NCBI GenBank assembly: GCA_041641305.1
Contig: JBEPYN010000001.1
Span: forward strand, 320,001 to 384,000
Direction: 5' to 3'
DNA from: Nitrososphaerota archaeon
GTDB lineage: Archaea; Thermoproteota; Nitrososphaeria_A; Caldarchaeales; Caldarchaeaceae
Length of the DNA: 64,000 bases
Position 1 is the stretch's first letter. Each line of letters opens with the position of its first letter. The notes under the pieces are model-generated. The model saw only the letters and a list, made by a program, of their open reading frames with translations. It was not told the origin of the DNA and did no database searches. The position numbers and the translations under genes are program-made. Below, piece by piece: positions 4,731 through 13,270 of this stretch.

Positions 4731-5312
4731 TTGCTGGTCGAGATGCGGGCTTATCTACGGTTAGCCGCCGCCGCGGCACTGTCATTCGCCGTAGCCTTCA
4801 TCCTAACCTATTTTGAAAACAGTTATCTTAACCCTCTTCAGCCAGCTTTGCTATCTATTTTGTTGATAGCCTCGGCAGCTGGTTTCGTGGCGAGGGCCTC
4901 ATCTCTCTCGGCTCTGGCGGCGGCTGTCGGTGGTTTGGGCGCGTTTGCTGTGTCCCAGTTTCTCGGCTTCTCTCTCTGGAGCCCCTCACAGCTTGAGTCG
5001 GACTTGCTCGTGTCGCGGCTGCTTCTTATAGGCGGTGCAGTTGTTCTCGCCGGGTTGATGGGGTTCGTCACAGGTAATGTTTTCGCACCGAAGCCAGCTG
5101 AGAGACCTGTTCAACCCACGCCAACCCCGTTACAAGTGGAGCAAAATCCCGCACCATTACAGCAGACGCAAGAAACTGTCCAGCAGGTTATGAAAATCTG
5201 TAAGTTTTGCTCGAGTGTGATACCGGGGGAGTCACGGTTCTGCCCCATGTGCGGGGCCAAGCTTATCGAGACCGGTGAAGAATCGGGTGAAAATGTCGAG
5301 GCAGGGGCTTGA
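4731..5312 (+). CDS. membrane protein with C-terminal zinc ribbon
   Basis: Four TM segments, Pro/Gln linker, CKFC...FCPMCG. Start may be ATG 4743. Confidence 0.8.
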   Translation: MLVEMRAYLRLAAAAALSFAVAFILTYFENSYLNPLQPALLSILLIASAAGFVARASSLSALAAAVGGLGAFAVSQFLGFSLWSPSQLESDLLVSRLLLIGGAVVLAGLMGFVTGNVFAPKPAERPVQPTPTPLQVEQNPAPLQQTQETVQQVMKICKFCSSVIPGESRFCPMCGAKLIETGEESGENVEAGA

Positions 5313-8142
5313 GGTTCTCAACAGCGTGGTAAAGGTTTTACGGGACGCTGTGTTGGAGAGGTTTAGCGACCTCACTCCTCCCCAGATGCAGGCGATTCCA
5401 CATATTTTGAACCGTGAGAACATTCTCTTGATGGCTCCGACAGGCACCGGGAAAACGGAGGCCGCCCTCATCCCCCTAATCAATAACCTGCTGCTGTCCT
5501 CTTCTTTCGAGGGTGTGAAAATCCTCTACATAACACCTCTAAGGGCCCTCAACCGTGACCTGCTCGACAGAATAGATTGGTGGGCGAGCCGCTTCGATAT
5601 GACCGTTGGCGTTAGACACGGCGACACAGGGCAGCGGGAGAGAAGAGCCCAGACCCTCTCACCACCCACCATCCTCATAACTACACCCGAGACACTACAG
5701 ATACTCTTGACAGCCCGTACACTGAGGCAGCATCTGCAACGGGTTGAGGCTGTTGTCGTAGACGAGGTGCATGAACTCGCAGGAGACAAACGAGGCAGCC
5801 AACTCTCCCTCGCCTTGGAGAGGCTTGTGGAGATAACTGGGAGAGATTTTCAGCGTATAGGGTTGTCGGCCACCGTTGGCACACCTGAAAAAATCGCACA
5901 GTTCCTCGTAGGACATGGGAGAAGCTGCGCCATAGTGCGAGTTCCCCTGTCCAAGTCTCTCCAGCTCTCGGTTGAGTATCCCGACCCTGACGAAAACGAT
6001 TACGAGCTTGCTGAGAATCTCTCGATTCATCCCGATGTGGCTGCGAGGCTCAGCCTAATCAGAAGACTCGTCGACCAACACGAGTCCACACTCGTCTTCA
6101 CAAACACAAGGCCGCTATCAGAGATTTTGACCAACAGGTTCAGGGCATGGGACGAGGCCGCACCCATAGGAATACATCACGGGAGCCTCGCCAAATCAAC
6201 CCGCATAGGCGCGGAACAAGCCTTGAAGACTGGTGGCCTCTCGGGAGTCGTCTGCACATCCTCCCTCGAGATGGGTATCGACGTGGGCCGCATAGAGCTC
6301 TGTATACAGTACAATTCCCCACGGGAGGTGACGCGGCTCGTCCAACGTGTGGGCAGAAGCGGCCACACCGTCTCAGGCACGGCAAAAGGGGTTATAATCG
6401 TCACGGACTCGGACGATGCCTTGGAGAGCCTCGCAATCACAAGAAGAGCTTACAGCGACTTGATAGAGGATGTCCTTGTTTTTGAGAATAGTTATGACGT
6501 GGCGGCGCATCAGCTTGCGGGGCTGCTTATTGAACGGAAACGTGTCAAGCTGGAGGATGTTCTCAAGATTTTCCAACGCTCCTACTGCTACAGAAACTTC
6601 ACCATGGAACAGCTCGTGAAAACTGCTCAGCATCTCGAGAAGCTTGGAGCAGCCGTCCTCACATCGGACAACTTTCTCGAAACACCTCCGAAAACAAACA
6701 TCCTCTACGAATACTACTTCAACAACCTCACCATGATACCCGAGGAGAAACAATATCTGGTGGTTAACGAGTCAACAGGCGAAGCCGTAGGCATACTTGA
6801 TGAAGAGTTTGTAGCGGAATATGGTGAACCCGGGACACGCTTCATTTTGATGGGGAAGGCGTGGGAAATCATTCAGACAGGCGGTGAACGGATTTACGTG
6901 GCTCCACTTGACAGCCTCGAGGGGGCCGTGCCCTCATGGGTTGGTGAGGAGATCCCTGTCCCATATGAGGTGGCTCAAGAGGTTGGAGCAATCAGGAGAA
7001 CATACGCGGAAGCATTGACGAGGGGTGAGGAAGAAAAGGTTCTCGAGATGCTTGCCCAACAATACCGCACCACCACAACGCTGTTGAAGAAGTCTCTGCG
7101 TGAGGTAAAGATGCATCATGAACAGGGGTTACCTGTTCCCTCCGACAGATTGGTTATGCTCGAGGAGACACCCGATTACGTCGTGTTGCATGTCTGCGGC
7201 GGCCTCAAGGTCAACAGAACCCTCGCCCGCACAATCGCCTACCAAGTCTCAACGGAGCTGGGCGCAGCTGTCACCGTCCAGCAAGACGCTTACAGAATCG
7301 TCTACAAATCACGTGAAATAACCGCCGAAGCTGTGCTCAACGCGGTGAAAACCCTTGCCGAGGAGCAGAGCTGGAGGCAAAGCTTCAGCAAAGCCGTCGA
7401 GTCTTCGAGCCTGTTTAGACGGAGACTCGTGCATGTCGCCCGCAAGATGGGGATGATTGCTAAGGATGCGAGCCTCCTAGACATCGATACGGCCAAGCTT
7501 GCGGAGGTTTTGAAGGACACGGTCACATACATGGAGGCGCTTCAGCACTGTTTCTTAGCAGATTACGAGCCTGAAAAAGCCTACAACCTGTTGAGAGGCA
7601 TGGTCTCCGGAGAGCTGGAGCTGAGGGTTGTTAGGCTTCTCGAGCCCTCTCCGCTGACCAGTTTAACCGTTAGAAGATATGCCAGCGACATTGACGTGAT
7701 TGCGTCGGAGCGGTTGCATAGGCTTGTTGTCAACGCTGTCCGTGGGAGGCTTAACAACGAGCCTGTCACACTCGTTTGCACCGTGTGCTGGAACTGGGTT
7801 GGGCGGAGTTTGGTTAGGGAGCTCGAGCAGTGGCCTAAATGCCAGTCCTGCGGCTCAAATCGCCTTGGAGTGTTGAGAGAGGAGCTTGAGGCTGTGATGA
7901 ACCTTGTCTCGAGGAAGGGTAAGCCTGTAAACAGGGTTGAGAGACAGATGCGGCGGAGGGCCCTTGAGACATCGAAGCTGGTCGAAAAATATGGGAAAGC
8001 AGCTGTCTTCACACTCGCAAGCAAATATGTCGACGTTGAGGCAGCCGCAGCTATTCTTGAAAAAGAGAGCTCTGTCGGTGTCAGACTTGTGGAGCTGATT
8101 GTTGATGCTGAGAAACAGCGTATTCAGAGTATGTTTAGGTGA
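5293..8142 (+). CDS. lhr: Lhr-family SF2 DEAD/DEAH helicase
   Basis: APTGTGKT, ITPLRALNRD, DEVH, LSAT, HHGSL, TSSLEMGID and QRVGRSGH motifs; C-terminal CxxC..CxxC. Confidence 0.95.
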   Translation: MSRQGLEVLNSVVKVLRDAVLERFSDLTPPQMQAIPHILNRENILLMAPTGTGKTEAALIPLINNLLLSSSFEGVKILYITPLRALNRDLLDRIDWWASRFDMTVGVRHGDTGQRERRAQTLSPPTILITTPETLQILLTARTLRQHLQRVEAVVVDEVHELAGDKRGSQLSLALERLVEITGRDFQRIGLSATVGTPEKIAQFLVGHGRSCAIVRVPLSKSLQLSVEYPDPDENDYELAENLSIHPDVAARLSLIRRLVDQHESTLVFTNTRPLSEILTNRFRAWDEAAPIGIHHGSLAKSTRIGAEQALKTGGLSGVVCTSSLEMGIDVGRIELCIQYNSPREVTRLVQRVGRSGHTVSGTAKGVIIVTDSDDALESLAITRRAYSDLIEDVLVFENSYDVAAHQLAGLLIERKRVKLEDVLKIFQRSYCYRNFTMEQLVKTAQHLEKLGAAVLTSDNFLETPPKTNILYEYYFNNLTMIPEEKQYLVVNESTGEAVGILDEEFVAEYGEPGTRFILMGKAWEIIQTGGERIYVAPLDSLEGAVPSWVGEEIPVPYEVAQEVGAIRRTYAEALTRGEEEKVLEMLAQQYRTTTTLLKKSLREVKMHHEQGLPVPSDRLVMLEETPDYVVLHVCGGLKVNRTLARTIAYQVSTELGAAVTVQQDAYRIVYKSREITAEAVLNAVKTLAEEQSWRQSFSKAVESSSLFRRRLVHVARKMGMIAKDASLLDIDTAKLAEVLKDTVTYMEALQHCFLADYEPEKAYNLLRGMVSGELELRVVRLLEPSPLTSLTVRRYASDIDVIASERLHRLVVNAVRGRLNNEPVTLVCTVCWNWVGRSLVRELEQWPKCQSCGSNRLGVLREELEAVMNLVSRKGKPVNRVERQMRRRALETSKLVEKYGKAAVFTLASKYVDVEAAAAILEKESSVGVRLVELIVDAEKQRIQSMFR

Positions 8143-8728
8143 TTTGCTGGTCTCCTTGTGTCTGGAGGTCTGTCAACGCCTTGAGCAACTGTTTTTGGTC
8201 AACCTCGGCAACGGCCCTCCAACCCACCGAGAGTAAACCATCTCCCGCGTCCACGAGATAACCTCTCCGCACAAACTTTTCCAGAGCCGATTCAATTCTC
8301 CACTTCGGCATCTTAGCCTCAAGCATCTCCATCACATCTTTCCGGGGAGCCTTCCCACCTCTTGAGAAAAGCATCGCCAAGGCAGCGGCCAAGACGGCCA
8401 GTTCATCAACACGCCACCCAGCGGCGACGACATCCGAAAGCGTCAAAGGCTCCGCCAGAGTGATGAAGTACCGTGCCCGGTCATAGTCTTCCTCCCCCGG
8501 ATTGTCGACAGCGGTTTCGAACAAAATCTTCACACGCAGCCCCATCGGCTCAAGCCTATGGTTAAGGCTCTCGATGACTTTGAGATAGTTTTTGCCCAAC
8601 CTCCGCCGTAGCTCATAGCCACGTACACCAGGTAGCCTATGGCTTGTGAAGAGCAGCATACCCATGGCTGTTTGTAGGCGTTTTCTAGCGGTGGACTGCT
8701 CAGGCTTCTGTTCAGACAACGAGCTCAT
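8135..8728 (-). CDS. KITE-family tandem winged-helix protein (ScpB/Nse1-like)
   Basis: Two winged-helix-like units (MLLFTSHRLPGVRGYELRRRLG...LNHRLEPMGL; ELAVLA...IESALEKFVRRGYL). Third gene of the SMC-kleisin operon and overlaps the kleisin stop. Confidence 0.7.
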   Translation of the reverse strand: MSSLSEQKPEQSTARKRLQTAMGMLLFTSHRLPGVRGYELRRRLGKNYLKVIESLNHRLEPMGLRVKILFETAVDNPGEEDYDRARYFITLAEPLTLSDVVAAGWRVDELAVLAAALAMLFSRGGKAPRKDVMEMLEAKMPKWRIESALEKFVRRGYLVDAGDGLLSVGWRAVAEVDQKQLLKALTDLQTQGDQQIT

Positions 8729-9476
8729 CTCCCTTGACCGTGACAACCATCGAGGCTACGCTGCTTCTCTTCACTTTCTCCACGTGAGGTATGAGATGTA
8801 TCTCGCCTGTTAAGGGGTTCTTTTTCAGGTCGGCGTAACCCTCGCTGACCACAAAAGCCGTCAGAAAAGCTCTCTCAACAACCTTAGACGGGCCCTCAGC
8901 GTTGACGAACTTTAGATAATCCACACGTCCCTCGGCATCCCTCGCCGCCAACAATTCCTCCCGAATCCGATTAATATCTTCCTCAAGCATCTCATGTTGT
9001 GAAAAAGTCTGAGGAAGATTATCAAATCCGGGGCTCTCCGTCTCAGGGGTTTCGCCCCTTGTTTTCTCTCTACGTGTGGGTAGGCTTAGGAAATGCTCCA
9101 GCCCCATGTTAAGCATGTACATGGTGAGCTGCTCGGTGTAGAGTATGGGTCTCCAGCTGGATACAAAGGCGGCTGCGAGAGATTTCTTGTCAGAGGAGGC
9201 TATTTTGAGGGCGATTACTTGGCTGTCAAGGAACAGCGAGTTCGTTCTGTCTTTGAGCCATTTGTGCTGAAGAGCAACGACAACAGCTATCCTGTAAAGC
9301 GTCTCAGCGTCGAGGACCAGAACCTCCGTGTTACGAGATTTCTCCAGAATGTTTCGCAGCTTGTTGAGCATAGCTTTGATGTCGAGGTTGTACGGGTCCG
9401 TGCCCGACTTGACCACAGCCTCACACAAGGCAATAACCCTCTCCAGCTCCTCCCTAGCCACCTTGACGCTCGTCAC
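8712..9476 (-). CDS. kleisin (ScpA/Nse4-like)
   Basis: N-terminal DPYNLDI resembles ScpA DPWDIDI; C-terminal winged helix VDYLKFV...FLTAFVVSEGYADL...GEIHL. GTG start at 9476 follows a GGAGGTGG RBS. Confidence 0.75.
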   Translation of the reverse strand: MTSVKVAREELERVIALCEAVVKSGTDPYNLDIKAMLNKLRNILEKSRNTEVLVLDAETLYRIAVVVALQHKWLKDRTNSLFLDSQVIALKIASSDKKSLAAAFVSSWRPILYTEQLTMYMLNMGLEHFLSLPTRREKTRGETPETESPGFDNLPQTFSQHEMLEEDINRIREELLAARDAEGRVDYLKFVNAEGPSKVVERAFLTAFVVSEGYADLKKNPLTGEIHLIPHVEKVKRSSVASMVVTVKGDELVV

Positions 9477-11208
9477 CTGAAACCACCTCCGTCTGAGCAG
9501 GGATGAGAACAGCCGACTTCCCTCTAACACTCTGCACTATTATCACGTTCATGTCCTCCGTGAAAGGCACTCTGCCGGGTGTGATGACGATATACTGGGT
9601 GTTTGGGTCGTTTTTAGCCGAGGACGTGAGGATGTGGATTATTCTTTCGCGGTTGAGGGGGTCTAGGTGTACGTCGAACTCGTCAACGGCTCTGAACGGT
9701 GACTTGATGTGTTTCTGGACGGCGAGTAGGAAGGCCATGGTTGCAACGATTCTCTCTCCACCGCTCTGTGTATGTGTGTCGAGAAGTGTGGGCTCTACCC
9801 CGCGGAACCCGACGTATATCTCGATGGAGGCCTTGTCTATGTCATGGAGGTTTCTTAGCTCAATTTTTCCCGCGCCTCCGACAAGGGATAGTATGCGCTG
9901 GTACTCCGGCTCAACCGATGCCACCAGCTCTCTCACAAACTCAGCCCATTTCTGCTTCCTGTACTCCACTTCCGCCATGGTTTTCTTGGCGTTCTCCCCC
10001 AGTTGCTGCGCCTTGAGCTCGGCTTCACGGTACTTTGACTCGGCGATGAGGTACATTTCCTCGGCCTGTGAGTTTGGCGTTCCGAGGGCCGCTATCTGAA
10101 GAGCTACGGACTTTATTTCCTCTGAGATTTCGACAGGTTTGCGGCCGCTGTCTGTCCGCGGCCCCTTTGCCTCGGCTTCGCCGCGTCTGCGCATTATCTC
10201 CTTGTCCAATGCGGTGAGCTCGTACCGGAGCTGCCTAAGCTCGTCCTCCCTTATCTCCCTTCTCTCGAGAAAACGGCCCAGCGACTCCGCCGCCGCCACT
10301 ATACCGTCAACCGTCTCCAATAATACCTTTTCACCCCATCCTTCTCGCAGACCTTTAAGCAGCGACTGGTAATATGTGGAGACTGTGTTACGCGCTTCTT
10401 CAATCCTCGCCTCGAGGCTCTCAGTCTCGCGTCTAATGCTCTCCATCTTCTCCTCAAGCCTCTCCCTCGACTTCTCCGCCTCTCTGACAAGAGACCATAG
10501 ATACTCGAGTTCAAGTAGCTTCTTCTTTTCCTCGAGGCGTCTCAGAATGGTGAGCTTTTCATACTCTTCTCTCCAGAACTCGACAGCCGACCGGGCCTCG
10601 TCGAGAGTTTTACGCAGCACAGCCTCTTCAGCTAAAAGCGCCGAGAGCTTCGCCTCCGTGTCCCTGATTCTCTCCCTTAATCCCGACGCCCCCACAGCCT
10701 CCTCAATCAACGCGAGCTTTTCCCTGCTGTCTCTGCTCACAAACTGCTCAATCATGTTCTGATGCATGATGATGAGGACGTTGTCCGGGTTTATCCCAAT
10801 CTTCGAAAGAAGGTTGCCGACCTCAGCCTTTGTCTTGAAACGGTTGTTGACATAGTGCCAGTATTCGCCGGATTTTTTGAGAAACCGTGTTATCGTAACG
10901 GTGTCGGAGTTTATTGATGGAATGGGTCGGACGCCGTCAATGGGCTTGTTGTCGAAGACGACGGCCACCCTCGCCGACTCGGTTCCCCTGCGAATGAGGT
11001 CAGCCAGTTTCTGTCCCCTTTCGGTGTATGTCTGGCCGAGCGCCACAGAAATAGCCAGCAGTATAGAGGACTTGCCCGCGCCGTTCGGGCCCACGATCAC
11101 GTTAAGACCCCTGCGTAGAGGTATCCGGCTATATTCATGCGACATAAAATTCTCCAGAATAACCTCTCTGATGAAAGGCTTAGGCCTAGTCTCCGCAGCA
11201 GTCGACAC
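9454..11208 (-). CDS. short SMC-family ATPase, SMC5/6-like (archaeal SMC-related / ClsN-like)
   Basis: ENFMSH, Walker A GPNGAGKS, Q-loop MHQ, coiled coils, signature QSGGER, Walker B/D-loop FRAVDEFDVHLD and QYIVITP; 584 aa; no CxxC hook. Confidence 0.9.
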   Translation of the reverse strand: MSTAAETRPKPFIREVILENFMSHEYSRIPLRRGLNVIVGPNGAGKSSILLAISVALGQTYTERGQKLADLIRRGTESARVAVVFDNKPIDGVRPIPSINSDTVTITRFLKKSGEYWHYVNNRFKTKAEVGNLLSKIGINPDNVLIIMHQNMIEQFVSRDSREKLALIEEAVGASGLRERIRDTEAKLSALLAEEAVLRKTLDEARSAVEFWREEYEKLTILRRLEEKKKLLELEYLWSLVREAEKSRERLEEKMESIRRETESLEARIEEARNTVSTYYQSLLKGLREGWGEKVLLETVDGIVAAAESLGRFLERREIREDELRQLRYELTALDKEIMRRRGEAEAKGPRTDSGRKPVEISEEIKSVALQIAALGTPNSQAEEMYLIAESKYREAELKAQQLGENAKKTMAEVEYRKQKWAEFVRELVASVEPEYQRILSLVGGAGKIELRNLHDIDKASIEIYVGFRGVEPTLLDTHTQSGGERIVATMAFLLAVQKHIKSPFRAVDEFDVHLDPLNRERIIHILTSSAKNDPNTQYIVITPGRVPFTEDMNVIIVQSVRGKSAVLIPAQTEVVSGDERQGG

Positions 11209-11372
11209 CTTCCTTCCCGCGGGGCCAGCGTCCCGCTATAATATAAATTCCCTCAAACTTCAACCGGCTTCAAATATGCCCGAGGACATAGCGGTGTATA
11301 TTATCCGCTATTACGTGAAGCCGTGGCTGCGATAAGATATAAAGAGTTGACGCCTTGTCCGCTGCTTTGGAG
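11209..11372. promoter_or_regulatory. divergent promoter region between the SMC operon and cdvC
   Basis: TATA-like TTTATAT (minus, 11241-11247) and ATATAAA (plus, 11337-11343); inverted repeat ATAGCGG-N10-CCGCTAT at 11288-11311; extra CCGCTAT at 11233-11239. Confidence 0.6.
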
Positions 11373-12497
11373 ATGTCTCAGGAGCTGGAGAGGATAGCTG
11401 CGTCGAGGGCCCGTGAAGCTGTTCAGTATGATAGGAGCGGGCAGCGTAACAAGGCGATAAAATCATACCGGGAGGCGATAGACGTTTTGTGGAAGCTTTA
11501 CCGTCTCAGCCCCGATGGAACAGTCAAACGCATCTACGCCGAGAAAATTAAGGAGTATCAGGCTCGGATTGAGGAGCTTCAGAACGGCGGTGAAGGGCCT
11601 TCTGTTAGGGTGGAGACTTTTGCCGAGCAGTCGGCGCAGCCGCGGCAGCAGCTTCAGAGCGAGAAGCCAAACGTGAGCTGGGACGACATCGTCAACATCG
11701 AGGAGGCTAAGAAAGCTATACGTGAGAGCATAGTTTTCCCCACGAGGAGGCCGGATCTTTTCCCTCTTGGCTGGCCCCGTGGAATACTGTTATTCGGCCC
11801 ACCAGGATGCGGCAAAACGCTGCTGGCTGCGGCCGTGGCGGCGGAGCTTGACGCAAGCTTCTACGTTCTCGACGCCGCATCTATTATGTCGAAGTGGCTG
11901 GGCGAGTCTGAGCGGAACGTCTCTAAGATTTTCAACCAGTGTAGGCAGGAGGCCCGTAGCGGAAAACCATGCATAATATTTATCGATGAAATCGACTCGC
12001 TGACCGCGGAGAGGTTTATGGAGGTGGGTGGTGAGGCGCGTGTGAGAAACCAGTTGATTAAGGAGATGGACGGTATCCTCGATAAGGGACGGCGGGACTT
12101 TCTCTACGTGTTGGCGGCCACAAACAAGCCGTGGCACCTCGACGAACCATTCATAAGAAGGTTTCAAAAACGGATTTTCGTACCGCTGCCCGACATAGAA
12201 GCTCGAATAATGCTCTTCGAGAAATACACCAAGGGTCTACGTCTCGACACAGGTGTGGAGCTTTCTCAGCTTGCTAAAATAACAGACGGCTACTCCGCCG
12301 CAGACATTCACGACATCTGTATGGAGGCTCAGTTGAAAGTTGTCAGCGAATTCTTCGCATCAAACACGGGTGAAAAAGGGGAGCCTAGGCCTATAACCAT
12401 GGATGACTTCATGGAGATAATCAAGAAAAGGAAGCAGTCGGTTGTGCTCGAGAATCTGAAGAAGCTGCTTGACTGGAACTCTAAGCACGGGACTTAG
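11373..12497 (+). CDS. cdvC: Vps4/CdvC AAA+ ATPase with N-terminal MIT domain
   Basis: MIT-like AREAVQYDRSG...AIKSYREAI, Walker A GPPGCGKT, SKWLGESE pore loop, IIFIDEID, ATNKPW..DEPFIRRF. Start could be TTG 11355. Confidence 0.92.
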   Translation: MSQELERIAASRAREAVQYDRSGQRNKAIKSYREAIDVLWKLYRLSPDGTVKRIYAEKIKEYQARIEELQNGGEGPSVRVETFAEQSAQPRQQLQSEKPNVSWDDIVNIEEAKKAIRESIVFPTRRPDLFPLGWPRGILLFGPPGCGKTLLAAAVAAELDASFYVLDAASIMSKWLGESERNVSKIFNQCRQEARSGKPCIIFIDEIDSLTAERFMEVGGEARVRNQLIKEMDGILDKGRRDFLYVLAATNKPWHLDEPFIRRFQKRIFVPLPDIEARIMLFEKYTKGLRLDTGVELSQLAKITDGYSAADIHDICMEAQLKVVSEFFASNTGEKGEPRPITMDDFMEIIKKRKQSVVLENLKKLLDWNSKHGT

Positions 12498-13270
12498 CTA
12501 GCTTCTGCGAACTCGAGCTGTATCAGGCCTTTTTCGTGCAGGCTTTTCAGAGCGTTTGAGACTGTTTCAGGGTCGAGGCTCAGCGAGTTGGCGCATGTCT
12601 CGAGGTCAAGCTCCTCAAGATTTGTCCCCAGAACGTATTCGTATACAGCTTTTTCGACATCTGTTAATCTCGGCACGTCGGGGAACGTCTCCCTCACCTT
12701 CTCGGCCGCGATCTTCCTCGCCTCCTCAAGAATGAATGAAGCCTCTTCAGAGAATTCCGGCACCTTCTCAGATGATGGCTCGACGTAGACACCCGCGTTT
12801 GCCATGAAGTCGTCTATCATCACCATCAGGCTGCGCAGATGCTCTGATGCCTCAGGCGTCACGTAGCTTATCTCGTCGGCCACGTTTTCGAGCATGGTTG
12901 CCAAAGGTCTCAATAGAGTGAGGGCTTCTCCGAGTTCGAGGATGCTTTCCAGCCTTATCTTAACCTGCAAGAGGACAAGTTGACTGTGGAGCACGATGCC
13001 CGCGAGTTTCTTTATCTCAGCAATCTCCGATGCGTAGAGCTTAGCTTTTGCATCGTCTTTAGACTGTAGAGCCTCGACTGTTCTGTTGAAGTATTCACGG
13101 CTCCTCGCGAGCATGTCTCTATACTTGTTGTTTAGTCTCTCTATGTGCGCGTTGAGGGCTGTTACCGCTTTCTCAACCCTCGTCCTAAACTCTTCCGTGA
13201 CCTCGAACGGCTGCGGCTCAGACTGGTCCTCGACATCCCAGTCATCTTTTTTGCGCAGAAACCCGAACAT
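12494..13270 (-). CDS. cdvB: ESCRT-III protein with C-terminal winged helix (CdvB)
   Basis: Snf7-type core (AKLYASEIAEIKK...RLESI), MIM2-like FPDVP, C-terminal winged helix (EKAVYEYV...ALKSLHEKGLI). Confidence 0.88.
   Translation of the reverse strand: MFGFLRKKDDWDVEDQSEPQPFEVTEEFRTRVEKAVTALNAHIERLNNKYRDMLARSREYFNRTVEALQSKDDAKAKLYASEIAEIKKLAGIVLHSQLVLLQVKIRLESILELGEALTLLRPLATMLENVADEISYVTPEASEHLRSLMVMIDDFMANAGVYVEPSSEKVPEFSEEASFILEEARKIAAEKVRETFPDVPRLTDVEKAVYEYVLGTNLEELDLETCANSLSLDPETVSNALKSLHEKGLIQLEFAEAS

What the first reader, a model, noticed from the sequence alone, without database searches (positions are those of the whole stretch)
8135..11208. Complete minimal SMC5/6-like complex: SMC + kleisin + KITE operon
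Seen: three overlapping same-strand genes. The ATPase has SMC5/6-type features (ENFMSH, INPDN..I.HQ, QSGGER, FRAVDEFDVHLD, and ITP in place of the ITH H-loop). Gene 2 has ScpA-like N- and C-terminal motifs; gene 3 is a tandem winged helix. Known: eukaryotic SMC5/6 uses the Nse4 kleisin and Nse1/3 KITEs and restricts extrachromosomal DNA, and short archaeal SMC relatives (ClsN, Arcadin-4, Sph) have been described, so the family itself is not new. To my knowledge a three-subunit complex like this is uncharacterised. Inference: a homodimeric ancestral-type SMC5/6 acting in chromosome organisation or against mobile DNA.
Basis: partly seen in the sequence, partly recalled or inferred. Interest (0 to 1): 0.8.

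Follow-up and report, generated by a model that had tools for sequence, protein, structure and literature searches.

The report
Hinge-less archaeal SMC5/6-like three-gene operon
This Caldarchaeum archaeon carries a real three-gene operon for a miniature relative of the eukaryotic SMC5/6 DNA-maintenance complex (ATPase, Nse4-like bridge, Nse1/3-like adaptor); this operon type is already published, and only the ATPase's very short, hinge-less arm and its conserved neighbours seem unreported.

Summary
Three overlapping minus-strand genes encode a 584-aa SMC-family ATPase (9454-11208), a 254-aa kleisin (8712-9476) and a 197-aa tandem winged-helix KITE (8135-8728).

The SMC5/6 reading is supported:
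- The ATPase head groups with eukaryotic SMC5 and away from canonical Smc and Rad50 (support 100/97). An AU test rejects the alternative (p 0.006).
- The ATPase shares the SMC5 motifs QSGGER, PFRxVDE and ITP in place of the H-loop histidine.
- The kleisin model matches Nse4 best.
- The KITE model matches Nse3/Nse1 best (Z 13.2, against 9.0 for ScpB).

The trio is conserved in about 130 of 150 sampled archaeal loci. The genome also has a separate canonical Smc-kleisin-ScpB operon.

The novelty claim does not hold. Yoshinaga & Inagaki (2021) defined "SMC5/6-related aSMC". Van Hooff et al. (bioRxiv 10.1101/2024.01.07.573240) describe these SMC-kleisin-kite operons and list Caldarchaeum. This scan has also found the same operon repeatedly on other DNA.

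Four details are not in the papers I could search:
- The arm is about 115-130 residues long, with no hinge and no cysteine.
- An Lhr helicase is a recurrent neighbour.
- A 228-aa unannotated protein is a recurrent neighbour.
- Long Bathyarchaeota paralogues have a mid-point CxxC.

The function is untested. I favour an ATP-gated DNA clamp acting in genome maintenance.

The parts
9454..11208 (-). SMC5/6-related ATPase, 584 aa, short-armed, with no hinge and no cysteine
   Evidence: Pfam SMC_N 8.5e-37. Best PDB sequence hits are yeast Smc5 7e-37 and human SMC5 5e-32, ahead of archaeal Smc 3e-30. The head tree groups it with eukaryotic SMC5 at 100/97, and the AU test gives p 0.006.
11068..11091 (-). 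Walker A motif GPNGAGKS (residues 40-47)
10303..10362 (-). Arm tip (residues about 283-302): a short, poorly conserved turn between the two coiled-coil strands, with no hinge domain and no CxxC
   Evidence: All length variation in the family maps to residues 281-289, and conservation is low there. The protein has no cysteine. None of the 120 near-length relatives carries Pfam SMC_hinge PF06470.
9751..9768 (-). ABC signature motif QSGGER (SMC5-type; canonical Smc has LSGGEK)
9661..9696 (-). Walker B plus D-loop, FRAVDEFDVHLD
9571..9588 (-). H-loop position reading ITP instead of I(S/T)H, as in eukaryotic SMC5
8712..9476 (-). Nse4-like kleisin, 254 aa; overlaps the ATPase gene by 23 nt
   Evidence: 38 of 64 family members hit Pfam Nse4_C (best 5.6e-9) and none hit ScpA. 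The family profile hits human EID3/NSE4 at 2e-4 and yeast Nse4 at 2.4e-4. Foldseek top hits are Nse4 chains 7qcd_F (5.8e-5) and 7tve_G (1.2e-4), followed by Brn1, Scc1, ScpA and MukF.
8135..8728 (-). Nse1/Nse3-like KITE (tandem winged helix), 197 aa, no RING and no cysteine; overlaps the kleisin gene by 17 nt
   Evidence: Foldseek: Nse3 7dg2_C 6.7e-7, MAGE-G1 1.5e-6, Nse1 7.5e-6; JetB, ScpB and MukE score lower. VIA-align: Z 13.2 for Nse3, about 10 for yeast Nse3 and Nse1, 9.0 for ScpB, 8.9 for JetB. Family members hit Pfam SMC_Nse1 (14 of 63) and MAGE (13 of 63, best 2e-5), and none hit ScpB.
11237..11247 (-). TATA-like box TTTATATTATA about 29-39 nt upstream of the GTG start, followed by the purine-rich GGAAGGAAG; a candidate operon promoter (inferred only)
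   Evidence: Sequence read; no experimental or comparative test was made.
5275..8142 (+). Lhr-type helicase gene, convergent with the KITE gene (the 3' ends overlap by 8 nt); a recurrent neighbour of the operon, not shown to be a subunit
   Evidence: Pfam DEAD, Helicase_C, WH_Lhr and DEAD_assoc. The same convergent arrangement occurs in 9 distant loci, and Lhr lies within 2 kb in 5 more. An Lhr-like ORF is present in 37 of 68 independent loci, and in 11 of them it is convergent within 150 bp.

Best explanation
The three genes encode the archaeal 'SMC5/6-related' complex in its short form.

Assembly. This is inferred from the folds and from how solved Smc5/6, Smc-ScpAB and Wadjet complexes are built. 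Two copies of the 584-aa ATPase engage their heads around two ATP molecules. One Nse4-like kleisin bridges them: its N-terminal helical domain sits on the neck of one ATPase and its C-terminal winged helix sits on the cap of the other. A homodimer of the Nse1/3-like KITE sits on the middle of the kleisin. The stoichiometry would be 2:1:2.

Mode of action. Each arm is only about 115-130 residues of coiled coil and ends in a variable, cysteine-free turn with no hinge. The only closed compartment would therefore be the one between the engaged heads and the kleisin/KITE. I therefore expect an ATP-gated clamp that holds DNA on top of the heads, as in the DNA-clamped state of yeast Smc5/6. I do not expect a long-range loop extruder.

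Role. It is a vertically inherited housekeeping machine that works beside the canonical Smc-ScpAB of the same genome. From its recurrent Lhr helicase neighbour, it most likely acts in genome maintenance at stalled forks, DNA damage or recombination intermediates.

What is shown and what is inferred. Shown here: the gene structure, the identity of the three proteins, their conservation as a trio, and the absence of a hinge. Inferred: the stoichiometry, the clamp mechanism and the repair role.
For: Identity of the ATPase:
- In the head tree, {family + eukaryotic SMC5} separates from {canonical Smc + Rad50} at 100/97.
- The AU test rejects family-with-canonical-Smc at p 0.006.
- The motifs NF(M/V)(S/T)Y, QSGGER, PFRxVDE and ITP are shared with SMC5 and not with canonical Smc.
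- The best PDB sequence hit is Smc5. The best named long proteins are eukaryotic SMC5.

Partners: the kleisin matches Nse4 best. The KITE matches Nse3/Nse1 best.

One complex: the trio is kept together, in the same order and strand, in 64 and 63 of 70 loci and in about 68-70 of 76 short-form loci.

Housekeeping and vertical inheritance:
- A homologue was found in all 58 other genomes searched in the same order, and in 200 of 400 across the phylum.
- The gene tree follows genus, family and order.

Second complex: a canonical SMC (1125 aa), a kleisin-like gene and ScpB form their own operon on contig 2.

No hinge.

Repair context: Lhr linkage.

Literature: the same complex type is described.
Against: - No subunit contact, stoichiometry, ATPase activity or DNA binding was tested, and I could not fold the ATPase or the complex.
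- My tree holds SMC5 but no SMC6 or SMC1-4 sequences. The wider placement rests on the published trees.
- A convergent neighbour (Lhr) is not co-transcribed, and it is missing from about half of the loci.
- Low conservation at the arm tip does not exclude a helical tip-to-tip contact of the RecN or MukB kind. Such a contact would restore a full ring.
- Eukaryotic Smc5/6 does extrude loops, so a clamp-only mode is a guess based on arm length.
Confidence: 0.8

Rival explanations
1. Same complex, different job: a chromosome-folding or segregation machine (a condensin-like loop extruder or domain organiser) that shares the chromosome with canonical Smc-ScpAB.
For: All well-studied SMC-kleisin complexes, Smc5/6 included, can translocate on or extrude DNA (established knowledge). 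The complex is universal in the order. In this genus the operon is divergent from cdvC.
Against: Arms of about 115-130 residues with no hinge leave little reach for segment capture. The genome already has a full-length canonical Smc operon. The cdvC adjacency is confined to the genus (L009-L019) and is absent from other genera of the same family and beyond.
Confidence: 0.15
2. An SMC-based immune system against plasmids or viruses, in the manner of Wadjet (JetABC-D) or Lamassu, or of the restriction of extrachromosomal DNA by human SMC5/6.
For: SMC + kleisin + KITE is also the composition of Wadjet, and the KITE model matches JetB (8dk1_F 1.4e-4; Z 8.6-8.9). In PADLOC the ATPase hits mad3 at 7e-33 and the short Lamassu SMC LmuB at 1e-22 over its whole length. 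Human SMC5/6 restricts episomal DNA (PMC10586767, title and abstract).
Against: No nuclease or effector gene (JetD, LmuA) lies beside the operon. The kleisin and KITE hit no PADLOC model. The family is single-copy, present in every genome searched in the order and inherited vertically, unlike patchy defence islands. GC content shows no island signature. The PADLOC hits are what any SMC head would give.
Confidence: 0.06
3. Not SMC5/6-related at all: a Rad50/RecN-like, ClsN/ASRP-like or arcadin-4-like ATPase that merely looks similar because it is short.
For: Its length (584 aa) is close to RecN and ASRP. NCBIfam gives weak hits to Rad50 models (1e-20), ASRP (9e-18) and arcadin-4 (6e-6). In this genome it is the best match to Rad50 models.
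Against: All those scores lie far below the curated cut-offs: 64 against 300 for ASRP, 25 against 860 for arcadin-4, 73 against 1000 for Rad50. Rad50 forms a separate clade at 100/100. There is no zinc hook, whereas all 8 Rad50 proteins sampled have CP(I/V/L)C at the mid-point. Kleisin and KITE partners are not features of Rad50, RecN or ASRP.
Confidence: 0.02

Closest known systems
Archaeal 'SMC5/6-related' SMC-kleisin-kite complexes (Yoshinaga & Inagaki 2021, 10.1101/2021.05.15.444277 / PMC8665677; van Hooff, Raas, Tromer & Eme, bioRxiv 10.1101/2024.01.07.573240)
   Same: It has the same three components in the same order (SMC, Nse4-related kleisin, Nse1/3-like kite). It shows the same coexistence with a canonical Smc-ScpAB set and the same TACK distribution. 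Their Table S3 lists Caldarchaeum subterraneum with one SMC5/6-related SMC and one Nse1/3-related kite, not adjacent. That is what a kleisin gene lying between them would give.
   Different: Their table records no Nse4-related kleisin for Caldarchaeum; it is present here. In the texts I could search, neither paper mentions that these TACK proteins are half-length and hinge-less ('short'/'shorter' have no occurrences). They also do not mention the Lhr neighbour or the 228-aa neighbour.
Eukaryotic Smc5/6 holo-complex (Smc5-Smc6, Nse4, Nse1-Nse3, Nse2, Nse5/6; e.g. PDB 7qcd, 7tve, 8i13)
   Same: The head sequence motifs match (QSGGER, PFRxVDE, ITP). The kleisin has the Nse4 type of fold. The KITE has the Nse3/Nse1 type of fold. 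A shared DNA-clamping mode is probable.
   Different: There is one SMC gene instead of two and one KITE gene instead of two. The KITE has no RING. No Nse2 or Nse5/6 genes lie in the operon. The arms are about a third of the eukaryotic length, and there is no hinge.
Bacterial/archaeal Smc-ScpAB
   Same: It shares the SMC2:kleisin1:KITE2 logic and the gene order SMC-kleisin-KITE.
   Different: The head lies in a different clade. There are no Pfam SMC_hinge, ScpA or ScpB matches. The genome's true ScpB and full-length Smc are encoded elsewhere (G000 contig 2).
Wadjet JetABC(D) and Lamassu LmuB(C/A)
   Same: The SMC, kleisin and KITE composition matches Wadjet. The short SMC of about 600 aa resembles Lamassu LmuB.
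   Different: There is no nuclease or effector gene. Inheritance is vertical and universal in the order. The partners are closest to Nse4 and Nse3, not to JetA and JetB.
ClsN/Sph (ASRP) and arcadin-4
   Same: They are short archaeal SMC-superfamily ATPases.
   Different: Those families carry a zinc hook and have no kleisin or KITE partners. The NCBIfam scores lie far below the cut-offs.

Membership tests
Archaeal SMC5/6-related complex | The SMC head groups with eukaryotic SMC5/6 and not with canonical Smc | tested here: met
   Careful tree of 51 heads: split at 100/97. AU p 0.006 against the alternative. Only SMC5 represented the eukaryotes; SMC6 and SMC1-4 were not sampled.
Archaeal SMC5/6-related complex | An Nse4-related kleisin is encoded next to the SMC | tested here: met
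   It is adjacent and overlapping.
Archaeal SMC5/6-related complex | An Nse1/3-like KITE is encoded next to the kleisin | tested here: met
   It overlaps the kleisin gene by 17 nt.
Archaeal SMC5/6-related complex | The subunits physically form one complex | not testable with these tools
   Only gene linkage in about 130 loci. No multimer model or biochemistry was possible.
Eukaryotic Smc5/6 holo-complex | A heterodimer of two SMC paralogues (Smc5 and Smc6) | tested here: not met
   The genome has one gene of this type and one canonical Smc.
Eukaryotic Smc5/6 holo-complex | Long arms with a hinge dimerisation domain | tested here: not met
   About 270 residues separate the two head halves. The tip is variable and cysteine-free.
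Eukaryotic Smc5/6 holo-complex | An Nse1 RING, an Nse2 SUMO ligase and Nse5/6 | tested here: not met
   The KITE is 197 aa with no cysteine. The neighbouring genes are Lhr and CdvC. The rest of the genome was not searched for Nse2 or Nse5/6.
Eukaryotic Smc5/6 holo-complex | SMC5-type head motifs (QSGGER, PFRxVDE, ITP in place of the H-loop His) | tested here: met
Smc-ScpAB | SMC hinge (PF06470), ScpA (PF02616) and ScpB (PF04079) | tested here: not met
   Pfam gives none of these for the three proteins or for their families. The genome's ScpB lies on contig 2.
ASRP (ClsN/Sph) | NCBIfam NF045487 at or above 300 bits, and a zinc hook | tested here: not met
   64 bits; no cysteine.
Arcadin-4 | NCBIfam NF053563 at or above 860 bits | tested here: not met
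   24.7 bits.
Rad50 | A mid-arm CxxC zinc hook, an Mre11 partner and a Rad50 head clade | tested here: not met
   There is no CxxC, whereas 8 of 8 sampled Rad50 proteins have one. Rad50 forms a separate clade at 100/100. No Mre11 gene lies nearby.
Wadjet | JetA/JetB/JetC models plus the JetD nuclease | tested here: inconclusive
   The kleisin and KITE hit no PADLOC model, and JetC is not among the top hits of the ATPase. No nuclease gene is adjacent. The KITE fold does resemble JetB.
Lamassu | An LmuB SMC together with an LmuA effector | tested here: inconclusive
   The LmuB model hits at 1e-22 (79 bits) with no curated cut-off. No effector gene is adjacent, and the head tree places the protein with SMC5.

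The most novel reading that the evidence does not exclude
A kleisin/KITE SMC machine that works with no arm-tip dimerisation at all. In this reading the short SMC5/6-like complex is a head-only, ATP-gated DNA clamp that cooperates with the Lhr helicase at stalled forks or recombination intermediates. In other lineages it would also cooperate with the 228-aa, possibly RdgC-like, neighbour. It would preserve the ancestral job of SMC5/6. In this assembly no HerA-Mre11-Rad50 cluster was found, so the complex may also cover part of that role.
Probability: 0.25. Interest if true: 0.65.

Novelty: new member of a known kind. Interest (0 to 1): 0.38.

Why it matters
The kind is known, so the find does not change the picture of SMC evolution.

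Its practical value is as a natural minimal SMC5/6. It has one ATPase, one kleisin and one KITE, all small and from a thermophile, with short arms and no hinge. That makes it an attractive object for structure and single-molecule work on two open questions: what an SMC-kleisin-KITE complex can do without a hinge, and what the ancestral activity of SMC5/6 was.

The recurrent Lhr neighbour and the unannotated 228-aa neighbour give concrete, testable candidate partners.

Tried and rejected
- Direct Pfam and NCBIfam scans of the window's own kleisin and KITE gave only sub-threshold hints (Nse4_C 0.18, SMC_Nse1 0.15). The signal became clear only when the whole families were scanned.
- The KITE family profile against PDB sequences gave only a weak MAGE hit (0.17). 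Fold comparison was needed.
- The middle of the long-form relatives gave no PDB sequence hit and no Pfam hinge.
- The ESM Atlas held no model of the ATPase.
- The idea of a conserved 'cell-cycle neighbourhood' with cdvC/cdvB was rejected. cdvC adjacency is confined to the genus, and no homologue of the window's cdvB-like gene (12494-13270) was found in any fetched locus.
- Defence-system readings were considered and set aside (plus the distribution).
- The 228-aa neighbour family has no Pfam, NCBIfam or PDB sequence match. Only a weak Atlas lead to RdgC came up (0.79).
- The records holding the long forms could not be searched for unlinked kleisin or KITE genes, because those genomes are not held.
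- Both structure-prediction jobs went to the partner proteins, so the ATPase, its arm tip and the complex were not modelled.
Full report
**What is there.** The window is G000 contig 1, positions 320001-384000, of a 1.66-Mb, 99.3 % complete archaeal genome. On the minus strand lie three ORFs that overlap end to end:
- 9454-11208: 584 aa, GTG start.
- 8712-9476: 254 aa, GTG start, overlapping the first gene by 23 nt.
- 8135-8728: 197 aa, ATG start, overlapping the second gene by 17 nt.

The shorter starts for genes 2 and 3 fit the lengths of the closest relatives. Upstream of the first gene is a TATA-like TTTATATTATA (11237-11247) and a purine-rich stretch just before the GTG. I take this as the operon promoter, by inference only. 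Best database hits are 'Candidatus Caldarchaeum sp.' proteins at 77 % identity or less, and an unnamed one is 94 % identical. The genome handle holding a 94 % identical orthologue (G018) has a single 1,680,938-bp contig. From memory, that is the size of the Ca. Caldarchaeum subterraneum genome.

**The ATPase.**
- Pfam gives SMC_N at 8.5e-37.
- NCBIfam places it nearest the prokaryotic SMC models but far under their cut-offs. It also lies far under the cut-offs of Rad50, ASRP (64 against 300 bits) and arcadin-4 (25 against 860 bits).
- Against PDB sequences the best matches are yeast Smc5 (7e-37) and human SMC5 (5e-32). Pyrococcus Smc (3e-30) and Smc6 (3e-29) follow, and Rad50 reaches only 4e-9.
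- Among proteins longer than 1022 aa, relatives of its own family come first. The next best are named eukaryotic SMC5 proteins (about 1e-25), ahead of hinge-bearing canonical SMCs.

I built a tree from the two head halves.
- With 92 rows and a Rad50 root, canonical SMCs, including this genome's own 1125-aa Smc, form one clade (98*). The family together with eukaryotic SMC5 forms the other (99*).
- A careful search on 51 rows gives 100/97 for that split, 100/98 for the family and 100/100 for SMC5.
- An AU test rejects the best tree that unites the family with canonical Smc (log-likelihood 17.0 lower, p 0.006).
- My tree has no SMC6 or SMC1-4. For those I rely on the published trees.

The family and SMC5 share NF(M/V)(S/T)Y, QSGGER, PFRxVDE and I-T-P at the H-loop. 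Canonical SMCs have GFKSF, LSGGEK, PFYxLDE and I-S/T-H.

**The partners.** Scanned alone, the window's kleisin and KITE give only hints (Nse4_C 0.18, SMC_Nse1 0.15). I collected about 63 homologues of each from related loci (alignments A1 and A2).

Gene 2:
- 38 of 64 family members hit Pfam Nse4_C (best 5.6e-9), and none hits ScpA.
- The A1 profile finds human EID3/NSE4 (2e-4) and yeast Nse4 (2.4e-4), ahead of ScpA (0.14).
- The AF2 model (pLDDT 78) has an N-terminal helical domain, a disordered linker and a C-terminal winged helix.
- Foldseek's two significant hits are Nse4 chains of the yeast Smc5/6 structures (5.8e-5, 1.2e-4). Other kleisins follow: Brn1, Scc1/RAD21, ScpA and MukF.

Gene 3:
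- 14 family members hit SMC_Nse1 and 13 hit MAGE (best 2e-5). None hits ScpB.
- The AF2 model (pLDDT 86.7, pTM 0.74) is a tandem winged helix.
- Foldseek ranks Nse3 (6.7e-7), MAGE-G1 and Nse1 first, then JetB, ScpB and MukE.
- VIA-align gives Z 13.2 over 173 residues for Nse3, about 10 for yeast Nse3 and Nse1, 9.0 for ScpB and 8.9 for JetB.
- The protein has no cysteine and so no RING.

**Conservation.** A homologue of the ATPase was found in 200 of 400 genomes sampled across the phylum. It was also found in all 58 other genomes searched in the same order (families f1-f4). The gene tree follows genus, family and order.
- In 70 loci, 64 have the kleisin and 63 the KITE next to the ATPase gene on the same strand.
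- In an independent set of named genomes, about 70 of 76 short-form loci have the kleisin and 68 the KITE. These genomes span Bathyarchaeia, Nitrososphaeria, Methanomethylicia, Hecatellales, Hadesarchaea and Geothermarchaeales.

The same genome has a second, canonical operon on contig 2: Smc 485362-488739 (1125 aa), a 229-aa kleisin-like gene, and ScpB (Pfam 3.4e-35). This is the two-complex picture described for TACK and Asgard archaea.

**The arm.**
- Only about 270 residues separate the two head halves.
- All length variation in the family maps to residues 281-289 of the window protein. Other members insert 10-108 residues there, and this region is the least conserved part.
- The protein has no cysteine.
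- None of the 120 near-length relatives carries Pfam SMC_hinge, whereas canonical SMCs do.

The arm is therefore about 115-130 residues of presumed coiled coil ending in a plain turn, with neither hinge nor zinc hook. That these residues form a coiled coil is inferred from their alignment to the Smc5 arm. I did not model it.

**How it probably works.** By analogy with solved Smc5/6, Smc-ScpAB and Wadjet structures, two ATPases engage their heads on ATP. One kleisin links the neck of one to the cap of the other, and a KITE homodimer binds the kleisin. Without an arm-tip dimer, the only closed compartment is the one between the heads and the kleisin/KITE. I therefore favour an ATP-gated DNA clamp like the DNA-clamped state of yeast Smc5/6 (PMC9191643, abstract), and not a long-range loop extruder. 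All of this is inference.

**Context.**
- The KITE gene is convergent with an Lhr-type helicase gene (5275-8142), and the 3' ends overlap.
- The same convergent arrangement recurs in 9 distant loci, and Lhr lies within 2 kb in 5 more.
- An Lhr-like ORF is present in 37 of 68 independent loci, and in 11 of them it is convergent within 150 bp.
- This points to genome maintenance. It is suggestive, not proof.
- The divergent cdvC (11355-12497) is adjacent only within the genus, so I do not read a cell-cycle link into it.

**Rivals.**
- Defence system. This fits the Wadjet-like composition and the PADLOC hits of the ATPase (mad3 7e-33, LmuB 1e-22). Those hits are generic to SMC heads. The partners hit nothing, no effector gene is present, and the family is universal and vertically inherited in the order.
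- Rad50, RecN, ASRP or arcadin-4 identity. This is contradicted by the scores, the tree, the missing zinc hook and the kleisin/KITE partners.
- A chromosome-folding role. This cannot be excluded.

**Comparison with the literature.**
- Yoshinaga & Inagaki (2021) defined 'SMC5/6-related aSMC', mostly in TACK archaea, often alongside a canonical SMC.
- Van Hooff et al. (bioRxiv 2024/2025) showed that these SMCs sit in operons with an Nse4-related kleisin and an Nse1/3-like kite, and proposed homodimeric complexes.
- Their Table S3 lists Caldarchaeum subterraneum with one SMC5/6-related SMC, one Nse1/3-related kite and no Nse4-related kleisin. The SMC and kite are listed as not adjacent. A missed kleisin gene lying between them would explain that.

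The finding is therefore a further member of a published kind. It is uncharacterised only at the bench: no experimental paper appeared in my searches. Neither paper's searchable text mentions the short, hinge-less arm. Notes from this scan show that the same operon, its missing hinge and its Lhr neighbour have already been reported many times on other genomes. I reached the same reading from my own tests.

**Side observations.**
1. A roughly 228-aa protein with no Pfam, NCBIfam or PDB sequence match is encoded divergently just upstream of the ATPase gene in 17 of 40 loci, and within 2 kb in 5 more. It appears in 35 of the independent loci. In this genome its homologue is unlinked (contig 2: 228553-229227). 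An Atlas feature search gives only a weak RdgC lead. An earlier scan note reports an RdgC-like fold, which I did not test.
2. Long relatives (1027-1071 aa) from Bathyarchaeota form one clade nested among the short forms.
   - All nine examined have a single CxxC exactly at mid-length, in a conserved C-x-x-C-G-S-x-L...W motif.
   - All four loci examined lack kleisin and KITE neighbours.
   - They look like a derived branch with a zinc-hook-like tip.
3. The HerA-Mre11-Rad50 cluster present in the sister genome G018 was not found in this assembly with G018's Rad50 and Mre11 as queries, nor did two Rad50 family models find a Rad50; HerA was not searched. An assembly gap cannot be excluded.

Noticed in passing
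L044:5755-6438 (+), L060:6190-6903 (+), L065:1777-2463 (-); own genome G000:C2:228553-229227 (L094:1501-2181): A conserved protein of about 228 aa with no Pfam, NCBIfam or PDB sequence match. It is encoded divergently 14-215 bp upstream of the SMC5/6-like ATPase gene in 17 of 40 loci, and it is present in 35 of about 80 independent loci. In this genome its homologue is unlinked. It is a candidate accessory factor. The only lead is a weak Atlas similarity to RdgC (0.79).
   Followed up: partly
window 5275-8142 (+): An Lhr-type helicase gene is convergent with the KITE gene. The same arrangement recurs in distant families (9 loci), and an Lhr-like ORF lies within 5 kb in 37 of 68 independent loci. 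It also scores 8.5e-105 against the PADLOC BrxHI model, which is itself an Lhr-like helicase.
   Followed up: partly
P0124-P0145; L095:4968-8087, L096:4971-8093, L097:1657-4860, L098:2941-6060: Long relatives (1027-1071 aa) of the same ATPase family in Bathyarchaeota carry one conserved CxxC exactly at mid-length (C-x-x-C-G-S-x-L...W; 9 of 9 examined). They have no kleisin or KITE neighbour in 4 of 4 loci, and they form one clade nested among the short forms. This may be a zinc-hook-tipped offshoot of the SMC5/6-related family.
   Followed up: partly
whole genome G000; sister genome G018:C1:909500-916000 (L177): The sister genome has a HerA-Mre11-Rad50 cluster (Rad50 is 758 aa). In the window's genome (99.3 % complete, 4 contigs), neither its Rad50 nor its Mre11 finds a match (HerA was not searched). 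The best 'Rad50' hit is the SMC5/6-like ATPase itself.
   Followed up: partly
G000:C2:485362-489983: This is the canonical second operon: Smc (1125 aa), a 229-aa kleisin-like gene that Pfam ScpA does not recognise, and ScpB (Pfam 3.4e-35).
   Followed up: partly
window 11355-12497 (+) and 12494-13270 (-): CdvC/Vps4 (MIT, AAA and Vps4_C domains) is divergent from the ATPase gene. Next to it is a 258-aa protein with a C-terminal winged helix that may be CdvB-like. The cdvC adjacency to the operon is confined to the genus.
   Followed up: partly
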